Shown here: in pieces, positions 1 through 28,932 of the stretch
How the letters are laid out: each line of letters begins with the position of its first letter
How positions within the stretch are numbered: position 1 is the first letter of the stretch
Assembly: GCA_023267215.1 (NCBI GenBank)
Contig: JAHFNS010000001.1
Coordinates: 22,043-86,042, forward strand
From: Candidatus Nomurabacteria bacterium
GTDB taxonomy: Bacteria > Patescibacteriota > Minisyncoccia > Phycocordibacterales > UBA9973
Length of the DNA: 64,000 bases
Direction of reading: 5' to 3'
Notes under the pieces: model-generated
Told to the model about the DNA's origin: nothing
The model's database searches: none
Seen by the model: the letters and a program-made list of their open reading frames with translations, nothing else
Program-made: the position numbers and the translations under genes

Positions 1-4
1 TATT

Positions 5-1564
5 TTGAAGTCTGAAGGTATTCACACAAGTATAGCCGAGAAATTCAAAGGTGTACCAGAAGATGTTATGTCTTATATGAAAGATCTGTCTATTAAGGCA
101 TCCAGTGAATTTGCAAAAGCTCAAGGTTTAGATAGAGAGTTGCAAAAACTTAAATCTAAACCTGAAGCTGAGGCTTTGTTGGTAAATAAAACTGCAGAAG
201 AAAATTCTGAAGAATTTGGGATTGTTAATTTTAAATCTGATTTTGTGTCCAACAAAAAAGAAGTTTCTTTTGTAATGGCAAAATATTTTGTTAGTAAATA
301 TCATATTAAAACAATTGGTCAAAAAATTCGTGATATTTATATATATGAAAATGGTGTTTATGTATTAGGTCAAAATATAATAACGTCTGAAATTCAATTA
401 ATACTTGAAAAAAATGCTGACAGTAAATGCAAAAACCATATCCTAGAAATGATTAAGGATTTAACCTTAACAAATAGAGAAGATTTTAAGGTGGACAAAA
501 ATTTGATCAACTTAAATAACGGAATCTTGAATATAGAAACTGAAGAATTAATCCCTCATAGTCCAGAATATTTATTTTTTACCAAAATACCCATCAATTA
601 CAATAAAGATGCCCAATGTCCTATAATTCAAAGATTCTTAAATGAAATACTACCAGAAGAGCATGTAAAAATAGTTTTTGAATGGTTTGGGTACTGTCTT
701 TACAGGTCTTATTTTATTAAAAAAGCCATTATATTTGTTGGTGAAAGAGATACTGGAAAATCTACTCTTATAAAATTATTTGTAAGGTTAATTGGTGTTG
801 AAAATACCTCGGTGGTATCTTTACAAAAAATATCTTCTGATAAATTTGCTTCGTCTAATTTATATAATAAACATATAAATGTTTATGATGATCTTGAAGC
901 TAAGGATGTGAATGATAATGGTATGTTTAAAATAGCTACTGGTGATGGAATAATAACTGGTGAAAAAAAGTTTAATGAACAATTTCAATTTCAGAATTAT
1001 GCAAAATTAACTTTTGCTTGTAATAAAATCCCGGAAGTAAAAGATATTAATGATCCAGCATATTTTAGTCGATGGATTATTATACCGTTTACAGCACGAA
1101 TAGAAAAAGTAGATAAATCTCTTAGCGACAAAATTAATACACCAGAAGAATTATCTGGCTTATTAAACATGGCTATTCTTGGTCTATCTGAGATCTTAGC
1201 AAAACAAGATTTTAGTTATAACAAGACGCCAGATGAAATAAAAATAGAAATGTTGCTTTCTGGATCTACAATAGCTAATTTTGCATATGAATGCCTTGAG
1301 GAGGATATTGGTTCATGGGTTAGTAAGGATGATATGTATGAAGAATATTCAAAATATGCTCAATCTAATAACTTACCAGTATTTGATAAAACAATGTTAG
1401 GCAGGAAACTTCCTGATCATAGTGGATATATTATCCATGGAACAAAACTAATAGGCAAAAAACAAGTTCAAGGCTGGAAAAATGTAAAAATTAAAGGAAA
1501 AAAAGAAACTTCTGACCAAGAGGGATATGAGGGTGATTTATCAATGTTTAATACAAATAATTAA
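5..1564 (+). CDS. Phage/plasmid primase, P4-family C-terminal NTPase (D5-like), 5'-truncated by the window edge.
   Basis: Walker A motif VGERDTGKSTL followed by DDLE (Walker B-like). The ORF is open at the window start. Confidence 0.55.
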   Translation: MKSEGIHTSIAEKFKGVPEDVMSYMKDLSIKASSEFAKAQGLDRELQKLKSKPEAEALLVNKTAEENSEEFGIVNFKSDFVSNKKEVSFVMAKYFVSKYHIKTIGQKIRDIYIYENGVYVLGQNIITSEIQLILEKNADSKCKNHILEMIKDLTLTNREDFKVDKNLINLNNGILNIETEELIPHSPEYLFFTKIPINYNKDAQCPIIQRFLNEILPEEHVKIVFEWFGYCLYRSYFIKKAIIFVGERDTGKSTLIKLFVRLIGVENTSVVSLQKISSDKFASSNLYNKHINVYDDLEAKDVNDNGMFKIATGDGIITGEKKFNEQFQFQNYAKLTFACNKIPEVKDINDPAYFSRWIIIPFTARIEKVDKSLSDKINTPEELSGLLNMAILGLSEILAKQDFSYNKTPDEIKIEMLLSGSTIANFAYECLEEDIGSWVSKDDMYEEYSKYAQSNNLPVFDKTMLGRKLPDHSGYIIHGTKLIGKKQVQGWKNVKIKGKKETSDQEGYEGDLSMFNTNN

Positions 1565-1693
1565 TTATATGAATATAAAATTTCTAATATATGACTTTAA
1601 ATTTACTATCTTATCTCTCTTTTGGAAAATAAAAAAATGAAAAAAGATGAAATACCCCCTTTTAAGGGTTCATTAATTTAAAAAGTAAAACAT

Positions 1694-2005
1694 ATGGAAA
1701 CAACTACTAAAACTACTAAAACTCCGAAAGCAAAGCAAAAATGGGGAAGATTCAAGTTTCCTTCAAGGCCAGAAGTGTACGAAAAATTCTCAAAATGGAT
1801 GGCCTATCCACCGTCAACTAGAGATCCAAAAACTCAAGGAGAATTTGCAAAATTGAATGAAGTTTCCCCTGACACATTGAGCGACTATAAAAAGAGACCA
1901 GAATTTTGGAAACTTGTAGCAGATAATAAGCAAAAACTACAATGGGAAATTGAAAGCAACCAATTATTGGATCGGGCTTTTAAGGATATGGAAAAAGAAA
2001 GTTAA
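1694..2005 (+). CDS. Hypothetical protein (mobile-element cargo)
   Basis: 103-aa ORF co-oriented with the primase and recombinase. No recognisable motif. Confidence 0.3.
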   Translation: METTTKTTKTPKAKQKWGRFKFPSRPEVYEKFSKWMAYPPSTRDPKTQGEFAKLNEVSPDTLSDYKKRPEFWKLVADNKQKLQWEIESNQLLDRAFKDMEKES

Positions 2006-2018
2006 TTAAAAACATTCA

Positions 2019-2210
2019 ATGCTGATCCAAGACATAACAAAAGAAAAAGTACGAATTAGACGGCCTAAAAGGCTAATAGTACCAACTTTGTCTTTTCATA
2101 TGGTTGAGGGAGCATCAGAAGGGGAGATTCAGCGAAGATTAGACAGCGCTTTTAATATTCTTTTTACAGAAGTTTTTAAAAATAACAAGGGTGTGGATAA
2201 ACCCATTTGA
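2019..2210 (+). CDS. Hypothetical small protein
   Basis: 63-aa ORF within the element. Its end overlaps the next ORF by 4 nt (ATGA-type coupling). Confidence 0.2.
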   Translation: MLIQDITKEKVRIRRPKRLIVPTLSFHMVEGASEGEIQRRLDSAFNILFTEVFKNNKGVDKPI

Positions 2211-2425
2211 CAATTATAGACAACTTCGTATATACTTTATTTATGGAATTTTTAACACGAAAAGAAGTAGCAAAATATTTTAGGGTTCACGAAAGAACCG
2301 TTGATCGCTGGATTGAAAGCGGTGTTTTAAAGAGCTATAAACTTGGAGATGGTAGAACATCACTTTTACGAATACCAAAATCTGAAATTAAAAAGTTTTT
2401 AGATAAAAGTAAAAATAAAAAATGA
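2207..2425 (+). CDS. Helix-turn-helix DNA-binding protein, excisionase (Xis)/MerR-like
   Basis: The segment TRKEVAKYFRVHERTVDRWIESGVLKSYKLG is a typical excisionase-family HTH. It sits immediately upstream of the recombinase and overlaps it by 4 nt. Confidence 0.55.
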   Translation: MTIIDNFVYTLFMEFLTRKEVAKYFRVHERTVDRWIESGVLKSYKLGDGRTSLLRIPKSEIKKFLDKSKNKK

Positions 2426-4077
2426 TAGAAGAAATTAAAAAACAAAATAAACTGATAGCAGTTTATGGAAGAGTCTCAACTTCAAACCAAGAAAATGAAG
2501 GCACTATTGAAACTCAACTTTCGGCCGTAAATCAATTTGCTGAAAAGAGTGGTTTTACTATTGTTCAAAAATATATTGATAACGGGTGGAGTGGCGATTC
2601 ACTTGCTCGTCCGGCCCTAGATCAGATGCGTGGAGATGCGAAAAAGAAAATCTGGGATGCGGTTTTAATCTATGACCCTGATCGTCTGGCCCGCCGATAT
2701 TCTTATCAAGAATTAGTAATGGATGAGTTAAAAGAAGCGGGCGTTGATGTGCTTTTTGTTACTATTCCGGAAGCTAAAAATGATGAAGATAAAATAATGT
2801 ATGGAATGAGAGGTTTATTTTCTCAATATGAAAGAATGAAAATAGCTGAACGATTTAGGCTTGGCAAGGTTCGCAAGGCAAGAGAAGGGCATATTATCGT
2901 GAGCGAGGCGCCTTATGGCTATACCTTTATATTAAAGAAGGGAAAAAGAGGGGACGCGGATTTTCTTCAAGGCCATTATGTGATTAATGAATACGAGGCG
3001 CAGATAGTTAAAAATATATTTTCTTGGGTAGACGATGAAGGATTGAGACTAAGAGGGATTGTTAAAAAACTTCAAGAACTTGGTATTCCTCCTCGTAAAA
3101 GTAAAAGAGGCGTTTGGAATACAAGCACCTTGAGTACTCTGTTAAGAAATAGAACTTATATTGGCGAAGGACACTATGGAGCGTCCTATGCCACTGTGCC
3201 AGTGAATCCAATTAAAAAAGAAGGTTACAGGAAAATTAAAAAAACTAGCCGAAGAATGAAACCAGAAAATGAATGGATCATAATAAAAACACCTAAAATT
3301 TTGGATAAAGATTTATTTGATAGAGTTGGGCAAAAGTTAAAAACAAATTTTCTATTGTCTTCTAGAAACACTAAGAATGAATATCTTTTGGCTGGTAAGA
3401 TTTGGTGTAATTGTGGTAAAAGGCGAGCCGGCGAGGGTCCACAAAGAGGAAAGCATTTATACTATCGCTGTACTGATCGAATTAAAAGTTTTCCTTTAGA
3501 ACATAAATGTAAAGAGAAGGGTTTAAATGCAAAGATATTAGATCCCCTTGTTTGGCAAGGACTTGTGAATCTTATGAGTTCTCCGAATCTATTGGTTAAA
3601 CAAATGGAAAGCTGGTTTAGTAGCCAGAATAAAGGAACCAGTACTTCAATAATAAATATTAAGGAAACAAAAAAGGAAATTGTGAAGCTAGAAGATCAAG
3701 TGAGTCGTTACGCCAAAGCTTATGGAGTTGGAACAATTAATCTTGATCAGCTTAAAGAATATACAAACCCTATTAAAGAAAGTATATCTTTATTTAATAA
3801 TCAGATAACTAAGGCAGAATCAGAGAGCGGACAAACATACGAGGCATTATCACCGAAATTAAATGAGATAGAAAACCTTGCGAAAGCATCAGAAGGACTC
3901 CGTAACTTGAAATTTGAGGCAAAAAAGGCGATAGTTAGAGATATTATAGATAGAGTGGTCGGAACAAGAGAAAATTTACAAGTTTATGGATATATTCCAA
4001 TAGTATCAAATATCAATGTCTTCTCTTTCAATCGGAATTGTGGGGTTGCCAAATGTCGGGAAATCAACGCTATTTAA
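2422..4077 (+). CDS. Large serine recombinase (integrase)
   Basis: N-terminal resolvase catalytic domain (AVYGRVSTSNQ with the catalytic Ser, then DNGWSGDSLARP), recombinase domain, Cys-rich zinc ribbon (CNCGKR...YYRCTD) and C-terminal coiled coil. GC content is higher than flanking genes. Confidence 0.85.
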   Translation: MIEEIKKQNKLIAVYGRVSTSNQENEGTIETQLSAVNQFAEKSGFTIVQKYIDNGWSGDSLARPALDQMRGDAKKKIWDAVLIYDPDRLARRYSYQELVMDELKEAGVDVLFVTIPEAKNDEDKIMYGMRGLFSQYERMKIAERFRLGKVRKAREGHIIVSEAPYGYTFILKKGKRGDADFLQGHYVINEYEAQIVKNIFSWVDDEGLRLRGIVKKLQELGIPPRKSKRGVWNTSTLSTLLRNRTYIGEGHYGASYATVPVNPIKKEGYRKIKKTSRRMKPENEWIIIKTPKILDKDLFDRVGQKLKTNFLLSSRNTKNEYLLAGKIWCNCGKRRAGEGPQRGKHLYYRCTDRIKSFPLEHKCKEKGLNAKILDPLVWQGLVNLMSSPNLLVKQMESWFSSQNKGTSTSIINIKETKKEIVKLEDQVSRYAKAYGVGTINLDQLKEYTNPIKESISLFNNQITKAESESGQTYEALSPKLNEIENLAKASEGLRNLKFEAKKAIVRDIIDRVVGTRENLQVYGYIPIVSNINVFSFNRNCGVAKCREINAI

Positions 4078-24752: not shown

Positions 24753-26003
24753 TTATTTAATCAAAATCATTTTCTTAGTCTGGCTGAAATTTCCAGACTT
24801 TATTGTGTACACATACATACCGCTTGTTAGTTTTGAAGCATCGAATGTTGCTTCATGTTTACCAGCAGATTTTTGTTCATTAACTAGCATTGCAACTTCC
24901 TTACCAAGTATGTCGTAAATTTTTATATTTACGAATCCAGCATTCGGAAGTGAATAGCTGATTGTTGTTGTAGGATTGAACGGATTCGGATAATTTTGTT
25001 CTAGTTTGAATTCTGTTGGGACAGCAGCAGTTTTTTCTTGAACGGCAGTAGTCGTGGAAGAAATTTTTAATAATCTTCCTTCGTTTACAGTACCTGATAA
25101 TTCGACAGGAGCATTGGCAATTAGGATTGGGTTATTTACAGAATAATTTTGGTTTATAAAATAGATTTTTTTATCTATTTGTTTAAACATAGAACCAGTT
25201 CCGGAAATTTTTGCTGTTGTATTTTTAGCAATTAAATCACCGTTAGTAATTTTTTCTGTAGAAAATAAACCATATTTATTACCAAACTTTCTCCATTCTG
25301 CATTTACTGGAGTTGAAACAACTTTTCCAACGGCATTAATGTTTCCAAATATTGGCCAATAAGCATTTGAATCTACTATTTTGTCCAATAACAATTGCAT
25401 GTCCCAACTTTCTATTAAACTACCATTACCAGACAAACTGAGACAAACGGCAATTGTATCATTAGCAGGTATTGTACCAACGAAAGGGAATGCTTTTATG
25501 GCATCGCTAATATCTAATGGTTTATCACTTTTGTTTACATGCCCATATCTGTTGTAGGGTATATCCAATACTTTAAAATATGAGTTGGTATATCCCCAGT
25601 TTTCTCCATCAAACAAACTTGTTGACAGATTAGAATATTGCAGAAATGGCATATTCGAGATAAATAATTTAAGTTTTCCAATGTTTTCAGAATTGATATA
25701 CATTGGATTTCCGACAGCAGCAACCTTAAATGGATTTGAAAAATAAGGAGATGATGAAGGAGTCCAATTGTTTTGATAAAGTATTTCTCCTGATTCAAAA
25801 TATTCTATACCAAAATAACTTGAGGTACTTTCAATTTGGATTCCTTTGAAGTACCCATTTACGAATACATTAGCATTTACATGAGTTCCAAGTCCGATAG
25901 CTCTCCCAGGGATAAATATTTGAGGTTGAGTTGGTATAACCTGAGCAATGATATTACTCAGTGAAAATAATAGTACAACGAAAAGTAAAGATAACTTCTT
26001 CAT
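24753..26003 (-). CDS. Secreted protein with a T9SS-type C-terminal sorting domain (Por_Secre_tail)
   Basis: Signal peptide MKKLSLLFVVLLFSLSNIIAQ. C-terminus NYPNPFNPTTTISYSL...KIYDILGKEVAMLVNEQKSAGKHEATFDASKLTSGMYVYTIKSGNFSQTKKMILIK matches the T9SS C-terminal domain consensus. Confidence 0.6.
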   Translation of the reverse strand: MKKLSLLFVVLLFSLSNIIAQVIPTQPQIFIPGRAIGLGTHVNANVFVNGYFKGIQIESTSSYFGIEYFESGEILYQNNWTPSSSPYFSNPFKVAAVGNPMYINSENIGKLKLFISNMPFLQYSNLSTSLFDGENWGYTNSYFKVLDIPYNRYGHVNKSDKPLDISDAIKAFPFVGTIPANDTIAVCLSLSGNGSLIESWDMQLLLDKIVDSNAYWPIFGNINAVGKVVSTPVNAEWRKFGNKYGLFSTEKITNGDLIAKNTTAKISGTGSMFKQIDKKIYFINQNYSVNNPILIANAPVELSGTVNEGRLLKISSTTTAVQEKTAAVPTEFKLEQNYPNPFNPTTTISYSLPNAGFVNIKIYDILGKEVAMLVNEQKSAGKHEATFDASKLTSGMYVYTIKSGNFSQTKKMILIK

Positions 26004-26544: not shown

Positions 26545-27507
26545 GTGGTGATTAAAACCATGAAAAAAATATTTAGAATTATTGTTGTTTTAATTGCACT
26601 AGGTGTATTGTTTTTTTTGTCTCAATATCGAATTACACAAATTTTATCAATCGTACAGAATAAATACTCACCTTGTAGTCAGCCGATAACATATTCTCTT
26701 GGTTCTTTTGATACTAGATTTAATATATCCAAAGAAGAATTTTTAAAAAAGGTTAATATCGCAGAAAGTACCTGGGAACAATCTATAAATAAAGAACTTT
26801 TTACATATAAGCCAAATGGTGATGGTGTTTTAAAAATAAATCTTGTTTATGATGTTCGACAAGAAGCTAGTCAAAAATTAAAGGATATAGGTATTACGGT
26901 TAATGATAGTCGTACATCTTATGATGATTTAAAATTAAAATATGACTCCATGCAAAGCGCCTATATTAAATTTAAGAAAGATTTTGAATCAAGGGTTGTC
27001 TTGTTTCAGGATCGTCAAAATGTTTATGCCAAAGAAGTTGAATATTCAAATGCAAACGGGGGTGCTTCTAAAGAAGACTTTGATCGTTTGAATAAAGAGA
27101 AAGATTATTTAGATATAGAATTTGCAAGAATAAATAAATTACAAGAAGAAATTAATTCAAAAGTGGAAAATATTAATGCAATAGTTATTGTTTTAAATAG
27201 ACTTGTTTCTTCTTTGAATATCGAAGTTAAGAAATTTAATACTATTGGTAGTCAACTGGGTGGAGAATTTGAAGAAGGTACATATCAAGAAACTTCTAAC
27301 GGTAAAGAAATTGATATTTATCAATTTGATAATAAGGGCAAACTAGCAAGGGTTTTAACTCACGAATTTGGTCACGCCTTAGGTTTAGGTCATTTAGAAA
27401 ATCCTAAGGCTGTAATGTATCGACTAAATAATGGGGTTAATGAAAAATTAACGAGCGAGGACATCTTGGCATTAAAAACACATTGCGGTGTATCTATCTC
27501 ATTATAA
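26545..27507 (+). CDS. Secreted zinc metalloprotease (metzincin/matrixin-like)
   Basis: N-terminal TM/signal segment, coiled-coil middle region, and HEFGHALGLGH (HExxHxxGxxH) near the C-terminus. Confidence 0.6.
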   Translation: MVIKTMKKIFRIIVVLIALGVLFFLSQYRITQILSIVQNKYSPCSQPITYSLGSFDTRFNISKEEFLKKVNIAESTWEQSINKELFTYKPNGDGVLKINLVYDVRQEASQKLKDIGITVNDSRTSYDDLKLKYDSMQSAYIKFKKDFESRVVLFQDRQNVYAKEVEYSNANGGASKEDFDRLNKEKDYLDIEFARINKLQEEINSKVENINAIVIVLNRLVSSLNIEVKKFNTIGSQLGGEFEEGTYQETSNGKEIDIYQFDNKGKLARVLTHEFGHALGLGHLENPKAVMYRLNNGVNEKLTSEDILALKTHCGVSISL

Positions 27508-27514
27508 TATCTTG

Positions 27515-27586
27515 TGCCCTCACTCCGAATCGAACGGGGATCTATTCCTTAGGACGGAACTGTTCTATCCATTGAACTATGAGGGC
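27515..27586 (-). tRNA. tRNA-Arg (anticodon CCT)
   Basis: Reverse complement folds as a cloverleaf: acceptor GCCCTCA/TGAGGGC, anticodon loop GTCCTAA, T-arm CCCCG-TTCGATT-CGGAG. Confidence 0.7.
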
Positions 27587-27692
27587 ATTCTTATTAAAAC
27601 TATTATAATTTAACATAAAAAAGTCAAATTTGAAAACTTGTCCCGCCTAGCTTAGGCGGGGTGAATTGGCTTTTTAGTGAAGCTATGATAAA

Positions 27693-27968
27693 ATGTGCTC
27701 TATGGACCCTGAATCCAAACAATTACTTCAAAACACACTAGCTCTCGCTGAAGAAAACAATAAATTACTTCATAAAATAAGAGGTGTTCAAAGAAGAGAA
27801 GCTATTTGGGGTACATTAAAAATTATCGTGATAATAGCGATAGCCCTAGGGTCACTTTATTATATAGAACCATATTTAGATAAAATATTAAATCTATATA
27901 ATTCAGTTACAGGGATAGAACAAAAAGTAAACAGCAGTCCTTTGCAAGATTTGTTAAAGAAATTTTAG
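27693..27968 (+). CDS. Hypothetical small membrane-anchored protein
   Basis: 91 aa with one central TM helix. Confidence 0.3.
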   Translation: MCSMDPESKQLLQNTLALAEENNKLLHKIRGVQRREAIWGTLKIIVIIAIALGSLYYIEPYLDKILNLYNSVTGIEQKVNSSPLQDLLKKF

Positions 27969-27979
27969 AATTAAAATAT

Positions 27980-28051
27980 GCCTAGGTAGCTCAGTAGTAG
28001 AGCGTTCCCCTGAAGAGGGACAGGTCGGGTGTGCGATCCACCCCCTAGGCA
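27980..28051 (+). tRNA. tRNA-Phe (anticodon GAA) with an unusual T-loop (G at position 55)
   Basis: Perfect acceptor (GCCTAGG/CCTAGGC), D stem (GCTC/GAGC) and T stem (GGGTG/CACCC). Anticodon loop CTGAAGA. T-loop TGCGATC instead of TTCGAWT. Confidence 0.6.
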
Positions 28052-28053
28052 CA
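28016..28053 (+). repeat. Direct repeat copy 1 (38 bp; 3' half of tRNA-Phe from the anticodon stem to the discriminator)
   Basis: AGGGACAGGTCGGGTGTGCGATCCACCCCCTAGGCACA is identical to 28412..28449. Confidence 0.9.
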
Positions 28054-28107
28054 TGAAAAATAAAATAAACTTAACTCAACTAAAGAAATATAATTAGATA
28101 TAATTAT

Positions 28108-28410
28108 ATGTCTTGTTATGTTTATATGATAAAAAGCATAAAAGATAACAGTTATTATGTTGGTATTTCAGAAGATCCTATTAGGAGATTGAAGGAACAT
28201 AATAGCGGTAAATTAAAAAGAACAGCTAAAAATAAACCACATAAGATTGTATTTATAAAAGAACACTTAGATTATAAAAAGGCGAGAATACACGAGATTT
28301 GGCTTAAGAAGAAAAATAAAGAATATAAGGACAAAGTGGCTGATTTCGATGCGAAAAATAAAAATTATGTAGAGCATTCCCCCTTGCCCCGCCCATTACG
28401 GGCGGGGTGA
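28108..28410 (+). CDS. GIY-YIG nuclease family protein (YhbQ/UPF0213-like)
   Basis: CYVYMIKSIKDNSYYVGISEDPIRRLKEHNSG parallels E. coli YhbQ [31 protein letters not shown]: GIY...YIG spacing and conserved Arg/Glu/Asn. Confidence 0.8.
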   Translation: MSCYVYMIKSIKDNSYYVGISEDPIRRLKEHNSGKLKRTAKNKPHKIVFIKEHLDYKKARIHEIWLKKKNKEYKDKVADFDAKNKNYVEHSPLPRPLRAG

Positions 28411-28411
28411 A

Positions 28412-28449
28412 AGGGACAGGTCGGGTGTGCGATCCACCCCCTAGGCACA
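28412..28449 (+). repeat. Direct repeat copy 2 (displaced duplicate of the tRNA-Phe 3' half)
   Basis: Exact 38/38 match to 28016..28053. Preceded by the hairpin CCCGCCCATTACGGGCGGG. Confidence 0.9.
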
Positions 28450-28452
28450 AAA

Positions 28453-28932
28453 TTAGATAGATCTAATCTTAATGGTGTTCTTTTTTTCTTTATCTACTTT
28501 TTGGATTTTAATAGTTAAAAGTCCGTGTTTTTCTGTAGCTTCTACTTCTTCTGGTTCTACTTCCTGGGGGAGAAGAATAGTGCGAGAAAATTTACCCCAA
28601 TAAAGCTCTTTAACAAAATAATTTTCTTCATCAATATTTCTGTTTTCCTCTCTCTTACCTTTGATGGTTATCAAATCTCTTCCTATCGTAAGTTCTAAGT
28701 CATCTGGTTTTACACCAGCGACCATTGTTTGCACGATGATATCTGTTGGTGTTTGATAGACATCGACAGTTAATTCCATTTCTTCATTTTCTTCTTCCAT
28801 CCAATCGTTCCCATTGCCATTTTTTTTATCTGCTCTTCCCGGCAAATCTTTTATCTCTTCATACTCTTCTTCAACCCGAATACTACCCGTTAATCTATCT
28901 AAAAAACTTCTTTTTTTATTTTGTGTATTCAT
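28453..28932 (-). CDS. Hsp20/alpha-crystallin family small heat-shock protein
   Basis: Alpha-crystallin domain: ...ITIKGKREE...FSRTILLPQEVEPEEVEATEKHGLLTIKI. Confidence 0.85.
   Translation of the reverse strand: MNTQNKKRSFLDRLTGSIRVEEEYEEIKDLPGRADKKNGNGNDWMEEENEEMELTVDVYQTPTDIIVQTMVAGVKPDDLELTIGRDLITIKGKREENRNIDEENYFVKELYWGKFSRTILLPQEVEPEEVEATEKHGLLTIKIQKVDKEKKNTIKIRSI

What the first reader, a model, noticed from the sequence alone, without database searches (positions are those of the whole stretch)
28016..28449. YhbQ-like GIY-YIG nuclease gene bracketed by an exact 38-bp duplication of the tRNA-Phe 3' half
The 38 bp from the anticodon stem to the discriminator of tRNA-Phe (AGGGACAGGTCGGGTGTGCGATCCACCCCCTAGGCACA) occur identically at 28016..28053 and 28412..28449. 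The ~360 bp between them contain only an A-rich leader and a 100-aa GIY-YIG nuclease ORF whose stop abuts the second repeat. This is the classic footprint of site-specific insertion into a tRNA gene that restores the tRNA 3' end. However, there is no integrase; the only cargo is a GIY-YIG nuclease, a homing-endonuclease fold. It could be a minimal homing or tRNA-targeting selfish cassette. The shared noncanonical T-loop (G55) in both copies argues for a recent event or selection.
Basis: partly seen in the sequence, partly recalled or inferred. Interest (0 to 1): 0.75.

Follow-up and report, generated by a model that had tools for sequence, protein, structure and literature searches.

The report
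Tiny nuclease cassette embedded in tRNA genes
A 396-bp insert in a tRNA-Phe gene carries only a miniature Slx1/YhbQ-type nuclease gene and a hairpin-interrupted spare copy of the tRNA's 3' part, and it belongs to a widespread, apparently undescribed family of such cassettes found beside many different tRNA genes in CPR bacteria and Bacteroidota.

Summary
The 38 bp at 28016-28053 recur exactly at 28412-28449, bracketing a 100-aa GIY-YIG ORF.

Eight related genomes have the empty site (tRNA-Phe, then Hsp20), so the 396 bp are an insertion. Other relatives carry diverged versions at the same site.

Among 80 related loci plus the window, 71 of 89 homologous ORFs lie within 200 nt of a tRNA gene, always on the same strand. 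Of 70 ORFs tested, 52 have a fragment of that tRNA on their other side, against 0 of 1,586 control windows.

- The second copy extends back to tRNA position 18.
- A 25-nt GC hairpin interrupts it in the anticodon loop.
- The ORF's last 14 codons are read-through into this fragment.

Similar hairpins fall almost only in the single-stranded loops of the spare tRNA copy, across two phyla.

The protein is Slx1/YhbQ-type (structure-specific nuclease family) with no DNA-binding domain, and it is under strong purifying selection. G55 is a lineage trait, not a sign of recency.

Best reading: a bacterial, tRNA-targeting counterpart of mitochondrial mobile endonuclease ORFs that duplicate their target gene's end. 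The hairpin component is unexplained. I found no publication describing it.

The parts
27942..27971 (+). Promoter-like site (TTGCAA-18-TAGAAT) ending 9 nt before tRNA-Phe. Candidate promoter for tRNA-Phe and, by read-through, the GIY-YIG ORF.
   Evidence: Consensus scan. No + strand promoter-like or terminator-like site lies between the tRNA and the ORF. This is weak evidence.
27980..28052 (+). Intact tRNA-Phe(GAA), the functional copy. Its T-loop is TGCGATC (G at canonical position 55).
   Evidence: ARAGORN; Rfam RF00005 60.6 bits; cloverleaf MFE -30.4 kcal/mol. The same tRNA is single-copy in 8 relatives.
28016..28053 (+). Repeat copy 1: tRNA-Phe positions 37-74 (3' side of the anticodon loop to 2 nt past the discriminator).
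   Evidence: Exact 38-nt repeat; 0 matches in 100 shuffles.
28054..28107 (+). A/T-rich leader between the tRNA and the ATG. It is the variable slot, which in relatives holds a cargo gene (glyoxalase, RidA, aldo/keto reductase).
   Evidence: Similarity to L089 begins only at the ATG.
28108..28356 (+). Core of the GIY-YIG nuclease ORF (residues 1-83), Slx1/YhbQ (UPF0213) type.
   Evidence: PF01541 E=1.2e-12. PDB 1ZG2 and 1YWL at E~1e-10, then SLX1. Foldseek finds BH0048 and Slx1, rmsd 1.7 A over 72 columns. Y6, Y17, G19, R27, H31 and E63 are invariant in 24 homologs. dN is 0.076 against 0.20-0.29 for neighbouring genes. pLDDT is 80-91.
28357..28410 (+). Non-native C-terminal tail of the ORF (residues 84-100), read through the decayed D-arm region, tRNA positions 18-31 and the hairpin. 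The stop codon is the TGA just past the hairpin stem.
   Evidence: Homologs end near residue 86-89, at a TAG inside the tRNA D-arm. pLDDT is below 50 for residues 84-91 and averages 46-51 over 81-100.
28339..28367 (+). Decayed remnant of the D-arm 5' strand and D-loop hairpin that homologs carry at this position (GCTGAT + ttcgatgcgaaaaataaaaatta against consensus GCTCAG + CTTGCCCCGCC..GGCGGGGTGAA).
   Evidence: Alignment with L093 and L089; alignment with the intact tRNA. Inferred; the similarity is weak.
28369..28382 (+). Second-copy tRNA-Phe positions 18-31 (GTAGAGCaTTCCCC), 13 of 14 identical to the intact gene.
28383..28411 (+). GC-rich hairpin unit CTTG-CCCCGCCC-ATTAC-GGGCGGGG-TGAA in the anticodon loop of the second copy. 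The terminal TGAA coincides with the loop's own TGAA. It is one member of a hairpin family that co-occurs with these ORFs.
   Evidence: RNA dG -22.1 kcal/mol, z=-5.1; DNA dG -11.8, z=-4.3. The same hairpin at the same position occurs in L089. Family enrichment is 0.92 per kb near ORFs against 0.054 per kb elsewhere.
28412..28449 (+). Repeat copy 2: the 3' part of tRNA-Phe, adjoining the native downstream flank (Hsp20 stop 3 nt away).
   Evidence: In the empty-site relative L086 the single tRNA-Phe ends about 7 nt from the Hsp20 stop.
27637..27665 (+). Solo hairpin unit of the same family (CTTGTCCCGCCTAGCTTAGGCGGGGTGAA) in the tRNA-Arg/orf91 intergenic region. It is an insertion relative to relatives.
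   Evidence: L086 and L082 read ...tttggaattgg... uninterrupted at this point. The whole 64-kb window holds only these two CCCGCC hairpins.
28453..28932 (-). Hsp20 gene, the conserved native flank that defines the insertion site. It is not part of the element.
   Evidence: PF00011. Synteny orf91 > tRNA-Phe > Hsp20(-) > PrsW(-) holds in all 8 empty-site relatives; the filled relatives L089, L091 and L093 share the Hsp20(-) > PrsW(-) flank.

Best explanation
Window 28016-28449 is one copy of a widespread family of very small gain-and-loss cassettes that live inside tRNA genes.

A cassette consists of:
- an ~80-90-aa stand-alone Slx1/YhbQ-type GIY-YIG nuclease gene with no promoter of its own and often no stop codon of its own;
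- a complete, functional copy of the tRNA on one side of that gene;
- a redundant partial or full copy of the same tRNA on the other side, broken up by short GC-rich hairpins.

Shown for this window: the cassette is a 396-bp insertion into a conserved tRNA-Phe/Hsp20 site. The upstream tRNA-Phe is intact. The downstream copy (positions 18-74) carries a hairpin in its anticodon loop. The ORF reads through into that copy.

Inferred mechanism: it works like the mobile endonuclease ORFs (mORFs) of fungal mitochondria. The nuclease is expressed by read-through from the tRNA promoter and breaks a cassette-free tRNA allele. It probably recognises a structural or generally conserved tRNA-gene feature and not a long specific sequence, because it has no recognition domain and family members sit at 17 or more tRNA species. 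Repair then copies the cassette, using the two flanking tRNA copies as homology arms. That would explain why ORF lineages track tRNA type. One tRNA copy stays intact because the gene is essential. The redundant copy is free to collect hairpin units. Recombination between the flanking repeats amplifies the unit in tandem or deletes it precisely, regenerating empty sites.

The hairpins are a companion mini-element that depends on, or is generated by, the same nuclease and repair activity.
For: - Insertion: 8 relatives have a single tRNA-Phe followed directly by Hsp20, with no GIY-YIG gene and no second half.
- Old and polymorphic: L089, L091 and L093 (and L090, whose downstream flank is not on the contig) carry the cassette beside tRNA-Phe with differently decayed second copies. 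L089's host nests among empty-site genomes.
- Family-wide pattern: 71 of 89 ORFs are within 200 nt of a tRNA, and all 71 tRNAs are on the same strand. 52 of 70 ORFs have a >=12-nt exact fragment of that tRNA on their other side, against 0 of 1,586 control windows. Mirror classes A and B interconvert between sister taxa, and the hairpins are always in only one of the two copies.
- Recombinogenic repeats: tandem units are 100% identical in L015 and L070.
- ORF tree: it clusters by tRNA type, with occasional switches.
- Nuclease likely active: catalytic residues are invariant and dN is 0.076 with saturated dS.
- Slx1/UPF0213 type. No extra domain is present (80-90 aa).
- Expression: in many loci the ATG lies 0-20 nt after the tRNA. 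The stop codon is taken from the tRNA's TAG. The window has a promoter-like site only upstream of the tRNA.
- Hairpins: they are 17-fold enriched near the ORFs and absent from the ~41 kb of empty-site relatives. 38 of 44 lie in unpaired cloverleaf positions, against ~51% expected. Some replace loop nucleotides, as imprecise repair would.
- Geometry: it is identical to mitochondrial mORFs carrying a duplicated gene 3' end (PMC3630166).
Against: - No cleavage activity or target site is known, and mobility is inferred only from comparative patterns.
- Synonymous sites between the closest cassettes are saturated (pS 0.69, the same as host genes). So there is no evidence of recent transfer, and vertical descent with repeated precise loss would also fit the filled/empty pattern.
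- The nuclease is more constrained than its host neighbours. That is unusual for a purely selfish homing gene and suggests a host-level or addictive role.
- The intact tRNA copy beside the ORF should itself be a target unless something protects it. I have no explanation for that immunity.
- In the mORF model the upstream 3' part should be foreign, yet here the two 38-bp copies are identical.
- The test of whether the D-arm and hairpin module travels with the ORF gave mixed results: L007 supports it and L008 does not.
- No phage or plasmid vector was found.
Confidence: 0.6

Rival explanations
1. Domesticated or commensal system, not a homing element. The small Slx1/YhbQ-type nuclease is a long-term resident kept by purifying selection for a host-level role at tRNA genes. 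Possible roles are resolving structures at heavily transcribed tRNA genes, maintaining the hairpin repeats as RAYT transposases maintain REP/REPIN elements, or promoting gene capture next to tRNAs. The tRNA duplications would then be by-products of its activity at its own locus.
For: dN is 0.076 against 0.20-0.29 for the neighbouring host genes, with equally saturated dS. The same site is occupied in several deeply diverged lineages. The prokaryotic Slx1 family is described as mainly vertically inherited (PMC1564403), and E. coli YhbQ is an ordinary chromosomal 'DNA damage response nuclease'. Different cargo genes lie between the tRNA and the ORF in L089, L090 and L091. The nuclease and hairpins co-occur.
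Against: Eight relatives lack it at this site and in the surrounding 1.4-14 kb, so it is dispensable there. Copies are found at 17 or more different tRNA species, with tandem arrays and truncated copies, for example the L033 ORF cut to 42 aa. That is the signature of a proliferating element. No conserved partner gene is present.
Confidence: 0.22
2. The hairpins are an independent MITE-like parasite unrelated to the nuclease. They accumulate in the redundant tRNA copy only because it is a neutral safe haven. The cassette itself would be a plain free-standing homing endonuclease gene.
For: A solo hairpin at 27637-27665 is inserted in an intergenic site with no ORF. 19 of 84 family hairpins lie more than 300 nt from any ORF. 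Hairpin number in the second copy varies from 1 to 3 among relatives at one site.
Against: A neutral safe haven predicts insertions anywhere in the pseudo-copy, yet 38 of 44 are in unpaired positions and T-loop insertions are always at GTTC|GA. No hairpins occur in the ~41 kb of ORF-free relatives. The D-loop hairpin is translated as the conserved C-terminus of most CPR members, in two different frames, so it is an integral part of the unit. CPR and Bacteroidota members each have their own hairpin sequence type travelling with their ORF clade.
Confidence: 0.12
3. Remnant of an integrase-mediated tRNA-targeting island. The duplicated tRNA 3' end would be an attL/attR pair, the integrase has been lost, and the GIY-YIG gene is a leftover passenger.
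For: Direct repeats of a tRNA 3' end flanking foreign DNA are the classical integrase footprint (established knowledge). Cargo genes occur in L089, L090 and L091.
Against: No integrase is present in the window. The nuclease ORF is in fixed register with the tRNA fragment in dozens of loci. Duplications extend to the D-loop or the whole tRNA, and in L019 beyond the 3' end. Class B loci duplicate the 5' end instead. The whole insert is only 396 bp.
Confidence: 0.03
4. RNA-level function. The hairpin-studded tRNA fragment is a structured 3' UTR or processing module for the nuclease mRNA (stabiliser, RNase P/Z entry site), or an RNA cofactor that directs the nuclease to the cognate tRNA gene.
For: The ORF and fragment share a strand with the tRNA and probably a transcript. 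The fragment folds with the hairpin stacked on the retained anticodon stem and an intact T-arm (dG -39.2). Inserts spare the helices. Fragments stay 93-100% identical to the neighbouring tRNA in many loci.
Against: No covariation supports this. The G.T against A.C test was inconclusive and the flanking TTG/TGA positions change to non-pairs. Many fragments are truncated or decayed, including the D-arm region in the window. An 80-aa catalytic domain has no obvious RNA-binding module.
Confidence: 0.08

Closest known systems
Mobile endonuclease ORFs (mORFs) of fungal mitochondria that carry a duplicated 3' end of the host gene (Allomyces macrogynus atp6; Glomus atp6, atp9, cox2, nad3; PMC3630166)
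   Same: The geometry is identical: gene 5' part + replacement 3' end, then the endonuclease ORF (GIY-YIG in atp9), then the displaced native 3' end. The host gene stays functional, no intron or integrase is present, and sites are polymorphic (filled or empty) among relatives.
   Different: Here the hosts are bacterial chromosomes, not organelles, and the targets are tRNA genes, not protein genes. The nuclease is the minimal Slx1/YhbQ type, not the I-TevI-like or LAGLIDADG type. The two duplicated parts are identical and not foreign-versus-native. Mirror-image 5' duplications also occur. The displaced copy is colonised by GC hairpins.
Phage T4 SegB, a free-standing GIY-YIG homing endonuclease in the tRNA gene cluster (PMC2330249)
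   Same: It is a free-standing GIY-YIG gene located among tRNA genes. It cleaves within a tRNA gene region and drives preferential inheritance of itself and its flanks.
   Different: SegB is a larger, sequence-tolerant homing enzyme of the I-TevI/UvrC lineage with a DNA-binding part. It is not bracketed by duplicated tRNA fragments or hairpins and is phage-borne. The present family is virtually absent from the phage collection.
Prokaryotic Slx1/YhbQ/YazA (UPF0213) proteins, e.g. BH0048 (1ZG2), EF2693 (1YWL), E. coli YhbQ
   Same: The protein belongs here by sequence (E~1e-10 to 1ZG2 and 1YWL; 29% identity to YhbQ) and by fold. It has the same minimal single-domain architecture.
   Different: E. 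coli yhbQ is an ordinary chromosomal gene with no tRNA nearby. The family has been viewed as vertically inherited repair proteins, and the selfish GIY-YIG enzymes have been derived from the other (UvrC+) lineage (PMC1564403). The subfamily here is tRNA-embedded, multi-copy and polymorphic.
REP/REPIN elements and their RAYT transposases
   Same: Short GC-rich palindromic hairpins co-occur with, and flank, a single small nuclease-type gene. That gene is maintained by purifying selection over long periods.
   Different: RAYTs are HUH/Y1 transposases, not GIY-YIG enzymes. REPs are dispersed in intergenic regions at high copy number and are not concentrated in the loops of tRNA gene copies. This comparison rests on my own knowledge of the REP/RAYT literature and was not tested here.
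Integrase-mediated tRNA-targeting genomic islands and prophages
   Same: Foreign DNA sits next to a tRNA gene, flanked by a direct repeat of the tRNA 3' part that keeps the tRNA intact.
   Different: There is no recombinase, the insert is 396 bp, the repeats have variable extent including whole-tRNA and 5'-end duplications, and the nuclease ORF is fused in register to the tRNA fragment.
Group I introns in Patescibacteria tRNA genes (PMC13011429)
   Same: Mobile insertions in the tRNA genes of the same bacterial group, some with homing endonuclease genes.
   Different: No group I intron is present here (Rfam E-value search). The functional tRNA is uninterrupted. That paper does not mention GIY-YIG genes, hairpins or duplications.

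Membership tests
GIY-YIG nuclease superfamily, Slx1/YhbQ (UPF0213) clade | GIY-YIG catalytic domain detectable above the curated threshold | tested here: met
   PF01541 at 48.4 bits against a cutoff of 22.6, E=1.2e-12.
GIY-YIG nuclease superfamily, Slx1/YhbQ (UPF0213) clade | Conserved catalytic residues (Tyr of GIY, Tyr of YIG, Arg, metal-binding Glu) | tested here: met
   Y6, Y17, G19, R27, H31 and E63 are invariant in 24 homologs. The assignment to catalytic roles is by analogy.
GIY-YIG nuclease superfamily, Slx1/YhbQ (UPF0213) clade | Closest sequence and fold relatives are UPF0213 and Slx1, not I-TevI or UvrC | tested here: met
   Profile against PDB: 1ZG2 at 9e-11, 1YWL at 1.1e-10, SLX1 at 8.5e-5. 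Foldseek: BH0048 and Slx1 at the top, with I-TevI and UvrC at E~1. 29% identity to E. coli YhbQ.
GIY-YIG nuclease superfamily, Slx1/YhbQ (UPF0213) clade | Absence of the C-terminal Asn typical of the UvrC+ lineage (PMC1564403) | tested here: inconclusive
   A semi-conserved N/S lies 7 residues after E63 (pattern WLKKK[NS]). This does not match the UvrC/I-TevI spacing as I recall it (about 12-15 residues after the catalytic Glu; from memory, not checked here). It was not resolved structurally.
GIY-YIG nuclease superfamily, Slx1/YhbQ (UPF0213) clade | Nuclease activity | not testable with these tools
   Needs biochemistry.
Free-standing homing endonuclease gene | Presence/absence polymorphism at an otherwise conserved site | tested here: met
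   8 empty and 4-5 filled tRNA-Phe/Hsp20 sites among relatives.
Free-standing homing endonuclease gene | Site-specific cleavage of the cassette-free allele, and immunity of the occupied allele | not testable with these tools
The occupied allele still contains an intact tRNA copy, so how it would be immune is unexplained.
Free-standing homing endonuclease gene | DNA-recognition module besides the catalytic domain, giving a long specific target | tested here: not met
   The proteins are 80-90 aa, with the catalytic domain only. Targets span 17 or more tRNA species.
Free-standing homing endonuclease gene | Element phylogeny discordant with host phylogeny (horizontal spread) | tested here: inconclusive
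   A filled genome (L089) nests among empty ones, but dS is saturated for both element and host genes.
mORF-type element (endonuclease ORF with duplicated target-gene end) | ORF lies between a functional gene end and a displaced duplicate of that end | tested here: met
   Window. 52 of 70 family members against 0 of 1,586 controls.
mORF-type element (endonuclease ORF with duplicated target-gene end) | The inserted gene end is foreign and the displaced one is native (the two diverge) | tested here: not met
   The two 38-bp copies are identical in the window, and copies are 93-100% identical in many loci. One hint of co-transfer: the window and L089 share an acceptor-stem variant absent from the other relatives.
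Integrase-mediated tRNA-targeting island | Tyrosine or serine recombinase gene within the repeat-bounded segment | tested here: not met
   The only ORF between the repeats is the GIY-YIG gene, and the neighbours are housekeeping genes.
Group I intron with homing endonuclease in a tRNA gene | Group I ribozyme core interrupting the tRNA | tested here: not met
   No group I intron hit even at E<=10 in 27400-28700. The tRNA-Phe is contiguous.
REP/RAYT-like or MITE/autonomous-element pair | Short palindromic units share their ends with, and flank, the protein-coding partner | tested here: inconclusive
   In L013, L017 and L018 the ORF lies between CCCCGCCAAT and ATTGGCGGGG. In most loci the hairpins are complete units beside the ORF, not around it.
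REP/RAYT-like or MITE/autonomous-element pair | HUH/Y1 or DDE transposase | tested here: not met
   The only associated protein is GIY-YIG.

The most novel reading that the evidence does not exclude
A transposase-free and integrase-free mobile system that reads tRNA genes by shape. A minimal Slx1-type structure-specific nuclease would cut the single-stranded loops of tRNA genes when the DNA is extruded or displaced as a cloverleaf, for example the non-template strand during heavy transcription. The breaks would be patched either with a GC hairpin unit or with the whole ORF cassette. The flanking tRNA copies would act as exchangeable homology arms that set the target. That would make target choice programmable by the element's own flanks, and would make the hairpins footprints of a new insertion chemistry.
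Probability: 0.2. Interest if true: 0.9.

Novelty: new variant of a known kind. Interest (0 to 1): 0.78.

Why it matters
- It would extend the "endonuclease ORF that brings a spare gene end" strategy from fungal mitochondria to bacterial chromosomes and from protein genes to tRNA genes.
- It would show that the minimal Slx1/YhbQ branch of GIY-YIG nucleases, long treated as vertically inherited repair proteins of unknown function, includes a large tRNA-embedded, gain-and-loss subfamily. The profile used here finds about 2,000 clusters (50% identity) at E<=1e-10, though how many of them are tRNA-linked was not tested. That gives the orphan family a testable function.
- The GC hairpins land almost exclusively in the single-stranded positions of the cloverleaf of a DNA gene copy. 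This is hard to explain by sequence recognition alone and points to structure-directed cutting or insertion at highly transcribed genes.
- These cassettes create tRNA pseudogene fragments, borrowed stop codons and chimeric ORF tails that will confuse annotation of CPR and Bacteroidota genomes.
- They mark sites where extra cargo genes accumulate.

Tried and rejected
- **Horizontal transfer from identity discordance.** The GIY-YIG proteins of the window and L089 are 87% identical, against 64% for the host flanks. I withdrew this argument after dS proved saturated for both (pS 0.69 against 0.68-0.72). The difference reflects constraint, not recency.
- **G.T against A.C mismatch test for a sense-strand fold.** 58 against 18, but the count is dominated by the repeated TTG/TGA flanks, which change to non-pairs (TCG/TAA) in a variant. 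Inconclusive.
- **Test that the D-arm and hairpin travel with the ORF.** L007 and L006 support it, L008 contradicts it, and most loci are uninformative. Inconclusive.
- **Group I intron.** None found.
- **Integrase remnant.** No recombinase.
- **Curated libraries.** NCBIfam gave no hit. PADLOC gave only weak sub-threshold hits. PHROGs gave generic endonuclease families.
- **Phage carriers.** Two weak Listeria phage hits only.
- **Strain-level polymorphism.** Look-ups with the window's exact Hsp20 and orf91 found only the same two contigs, or nothing.
- **L051 and L056 as evidence of intragenomic spread.** The 99.3% identity spans 3.3 kb of flank as well, so this is a segmental duplication or an assembly repeat.
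- **Literature.** Searches for GIY-YIG + tRNA + hairpin, Patescibacteria or Bacteroidetes, for YhbQ, and for the 20-nt palindrome found no description of this arrangement. The library omits most subscription journals, so prior description cannot be excluded.
Full report
**1. The observation**

The 38-mer AGGGACAGGTCGGGTGTGCGATCCACCCCCTAGGCACA occurs exactly twice in the window, at 28016-28053 and 28412-28449. None of 100 shuffles gave a match. The first copy is the 3' part (raw positions 37-74) of tRNA-Phe(GAA) at 27980-28052 (ARAGORN; Rfam tRNA 60.6 bits). Between the copies lie a 54-nt A/T-rich leader and ORF 28108-28410 (100 aa). The ORF matches Pfam GIY-YIG at E=1.2e-12, and its TGA ends 1 nt before copy 2. 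No integrase is nearby.

**2.

- Similarity to the tRNA continues upstream of copy 2. Positions 28369-28382 (GTAGAGCaTTCCCC) match tRNA positions 18-31 at 13 of 14 bases.
- This stretch is separated from copy 2 by a 25-nt insert, CTTGCCCCGCCCATTACGGGCGGGG, at the position of the anticodon loop.
- The insert forms a very stable hairpin: RNA -22.1 kcal/mol, z=-5.1; DNA -11.8, z=-4.3.
- The ORF's last residues are translated from this tRNA fragment and hairpin.
- Homologs are about 86-89 aa. The AlphaFold model is confident for residues 1-83 and poor for the tail.
- A second hairpin of the same type lies at 27637-27665. These two are the only CCCGCC-type hairpins in the 64-kb window.

**3. It is an insertion: empty and filled sites**

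I scanned metagenome contigs for this tRNA-Phe's variable loop and T-arm and found eight relatives, L081-L088.

- All eight have the synteny orf91 > tRNA-Phe > Hsp20(-) > PrsW(-).
- All eight have one tRNA-Phe, no second 3' half and no GIY-YIG gene.
- In L086 the Hsp20 stop is about 7 nt from the tRNA end, against 3 nt from copy 2 in the window.

The closest protein homologs sit at the same site in other relatives:

| Locus | Identity to window protein | Layout |
|---|---|---|
| L089 | 87% | tRNA-Phe, glyoxalase gene, ORF, fragment with anticodon-loop and T-loop hairpins, Hsp20 |
| L091 | 77% | tRNA-Phe, aldo/keto reductase, ORF, T-arm fragment with hairpin, Hsp20 |
| L093 | 73% | tRNA-Phe, 59 nt, ORF, full second tRNA-Phe with hairpins in all three loops |
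| L090 | 81% | tRNA-Phe, RidA, ORF, second tRNA-Phe with only a D-loop hairpin |

On a Hsp20+PrsW tree, the filled L089 nests among the empty L084, L087 and L088. The site is therefore polymorphic and the cassette is old there.

The G55 T-loop is a lineage trait. It is present in the single-copy genes and in L089 and L091, which were found independently of the tRNA pattern.

**4. The family-wide pattern**

One scan of species-representative genomes found at least 536 loci, and I analysed the best 80. The hosts are CPR/Patescibacteria, Bacteroidota and a few others.

- Of 89 ORFs detected with the family profile, 71 have a tRNA within 200 nt, always on the same strand. Thirty are upstream, 18 downstream, and 23 overlap the ORF's 3' end. 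Seventeen or more tRNA species are involved.
- Of 70 ORFs with an adjacent tRNA, 52 have a >=12-nt exact fragment of that tRNA on their other side. None of 1,586 control windows do.
- Two mirror classes exist. Class A is intact tRNA, ORF, then 3' fragments. Class B is 5' fragments, ORF, then intact tRNA.
- Sister ORFs can belong to different classes. L049 and L063 are exact mirror images: tRNA copy, ORF, tRNA copy, with the hairpins in one copy or the other.
- The ORF usually has no stop codon of its own. It ends at the TAG of U8-A9-G10 or of the D-stem GTAGAGC of the downstream tRNA copy.
- The conserved C-termini ...LAQLAPPxxGGVK and ...PRLxQAG are the D-arm and hairpin read in two different frames.
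- The ORF tree clusters largely by tRNA type (Phe, Thr, Lys, Arg, Glu), with occasional switches.
- Tandem units are 100% identical in L015 and L070. The flanking repeats therefore recombine, and the same process would delete the cassette precisely.

**5. The hairpins**

The spare tRNA copy is broken into collinear pieces by inserts of about 20-30 nt. In CPR the insert is CCCCGCC-loop-GGCGGGG with CTTG and TRAA flanks. In Bacteroidota it is mostly the perfect palindrome CCTGCCTGCCGGCAGGCAGG.

- Of 44 cleanly defined inserts, 38 are in unpaired or boundary positions of the cloverleaf: 27 in the D-loop, 8 in the T-loop (always GTTC|GA), 6 in the anticodon loop and 2 at junctions. One insert lies deep inside a helix and falls into none of these categories. 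The 43 region labels also include five of the six inserts scored as within a helix strand, because labels were assigned from the flanking +/-3 nt. About 49% of junctions lie inside helix strands, so about 51% unpaired would be expected. Five of the six exceptions are within 1-2 nt of a loop; the sixth (L021, position 63) lies inside the helix.
- Family hairpins are 17-fold denser within 300 nt of the ORFs (0.92 against 0.054 per kb).
- They are absent from the ~41 kb of empty-site relatives.
- Some replace loop nucleotides. The T-loops of L089 and L093 are replaced, and G36 is lost in the window. That looks like imprecise break repair and not cut-and-paste.
- The solo hairpin at 27637-27665 is an insertion relative to L086 and L082.

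The counts are not independent events, because many D-loop hairpins are inherited with their ORF clade. The restriction to loops still holds across different tRNAs and two phyla.

**6. The protein**

- The nearest solved relatives are UPF0213 BH0048 (1ZG2) and EF2693 (1YWL), then the SLX1 nuclease domain.
- Foldseek agrees: Slx1 at rmsd 1.7 A over 72 columns, with I-TevI and UvrC at E~1.
- It is 29% identical to E. coli YhbQ. That gene is not tRNA-linked.
- Y6, Y17, R27, H31 and E63 are invariant.
- Between the window and L089, dN is 0.076 with saturated pS of 0.69. Hsp20 and PrsW have dN of 0.20 and 0.29 with the same pS. The nuclease is functional and strongly constrained, and there is no sign of recent transfer.
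- The profile finds 16,529 clusters (50% identity) at E<=1e-3 and 2,012 at E<=1e-10.
- PMC1564403 treats prokaryotic Slx1-like proteins as minimal, mostly vertically inherited domains. It derives the selfish GIY-YIG enzymes from the other lineage. It also records a fusion to a TrmH-type methyltransferase that modifies position 18 of tRNA.

**7. Mechanism**

Shown:
- The cassette is an insertion into a conserved site.
- One tRNA copy is retained intact.
- The spare copy is interrupted by hairpins.
- The flanking repeats recombine.
- The nuclease is constrained.
- ORF and tRNA are always co-oriented, with an ATG often 0-20 nt after a tRNA. In the window a promoter-like site exists only upstream of the tRNA.

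Inferred:
- Expression is by read-through from the tRNA promoter.
- The nuclease breaks cassette-free tRNA alleles. Recognition is through structure or generally conserved tRNA-gene features, because the protein has no recognition domain.
- Repair copies the cassette using the two tRNA copies as homology arms.
- Hairpin units are patched into breaks in the redundant copy.

This is the geometry of mitochondrial mORFs that bring a replacement gene end (PMC3630166). It is also reminiscent of T4 SegB in the phage tRNA cluster (PMC2330249).

Unexplained:
- how the intact copy next to the ORF escapes cutting;
- why selection on the nuclease is so strong;
- why the hairpins avoid helices.

**8. Rivals**

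- A domesticated, RAYT/REPIN-like resident nuclease is the main alternative (0.22).
- Hairpins as an unrelated parasite (0.12).
- An RNA-level role for the fragment (0.08).
- An integrase remnant (0.03).
- A group I intron is excluded.

**9. Novelty and verdict**

I found no description of this arrangement in the searchable literature. That library is incomplete.

I classify it as a new variant of a known kind: a mobile endonuclease ORF with duplication of its target gene's end. It has three new aspects: bacterial tRNA genes as targets, a Slx1/YhbQ-type nuclease, and loop-restricted GC hairpins.

Interest: 0.78.

Noticed in passing
window 27637-27665: Solo 29-nt hairpin unit (CTTGTCCCGCCTAGCTTAGGCGGGGTGAA) between tRNA-Arg(CCT)(-) and orf91(+). 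It is absent from the equivalent spot in L086 and L082, which read tttggaattgg uninterrupted. It is also flagged as terminator-like because a T-rich run follows it.
   Followed up: partly
L089:131-565, L090:359-766, L091:610-1479: At the same tRNA-Phe site, three relatives carry three different cargo genes (glyoxalase, RidA/L-PSP, aldo/keto reductase) between the intact tRNA-Phe and the GIY-YIG ORF. The window and L093 have only a ~55-nt leader there. The slot looks like a gene-capture hotspot.
   Followed up: partly
L010:2214-2340: An intact tRNA-Thr(GGT) is nested inside the loop of a D-loop hairpin (...ctcagcttgccccgcc-AGA-[tRNA]-ggcggggtgaagtagagc...), which itself sits in a tRNA-Thr-like fragment after the ORF.
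   Followed up: no
L013:2975-3290, L017:2985-3245, L018:2975-3260: In three CPR loci with no tRNA nearby, the ORF lies between CCCCGCCAAT and ATTGGCGGGG(CAAG). That is the loop of a hairpin unit in inverted orientation, as in an autonomous element with MITE-like derivatives.
   Followed up: no
family-wide; window 28368-28410: The ORFs borrow their stop codon from the tRNA (TAG of U8-A9-G10 or of the D-stem GTAGAGC). In the window the frame has slipped past that TAG, so translation runs on to the TGA beside the anticodon-loop hairpin and adds a 14-residue low-confidence tail.
   Followed up: yes
window 28032-28038; L081-L089, L091: tRNA-Phe of this clade has G instead of the near-universal U at T-loop position 55 (TGCGATC or TGCGATT). 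More distant relatives (L090, L093) have canonical T-loops. The functional consequence is unknown.
   Followed up: partly
L093:1300-1554, L094:1009-1263: A second GIY-YIG ORF (84 aa) on the opposite strand lies between the hairpin-laden tRNA-Phe copy and Hsp20.
   Followed up: no
window 27514-27586 against L081, L082, L085, L091: The neighbouring tRNA-Arg(CCT) is inverted relative to tRNA-Phe in some relatives and co-oriented in others, so local rearrangements around this tRNA cluster are frequent.
   Followed up: no
L051 and L056, positions 1-3315: Two contigs of one Sunxiuqinia MAG are 99.3% identical over 3.3 kb. The identity ends exactly at the 3' end of the tRNA-Arg(ACG) that follows the GIY-YIG ORF. 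This is a segmental duplication or an assembly repeat bounded by the tRNA.
   Followed up: partly
window tRNA-Phe position 5 and its pairing partner; L089:1-63 and 931-944: The window and L089, which have the most similar cassettes, share an acceptor-stem variant (ccTaggc; A5:U pair in the window). All empty-site relatives and L090, L091 and L093 have ccCaggc. This single-site hint suggests the tRNA allele may travel with the cassette.
   Followed up: partly
window 24753-26003 (-): A 416-aa ORF has a Por/T9SS C-terminal secretion tail (PF18962), which is unexpected in a genome whose other markers point to Candidatus Nomurabacteria.
   Followed up: no
L082 (oriented so tRNA-Phe is +) 3081-3524: One empty-site relative has a 445-nt spacer between tRNA-Phe and Hsp20, where the others have 7-110 nt. 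Rfam at gathering threshold found no family in the spacer. Its content is uncharacterised.
   Followed up: partly
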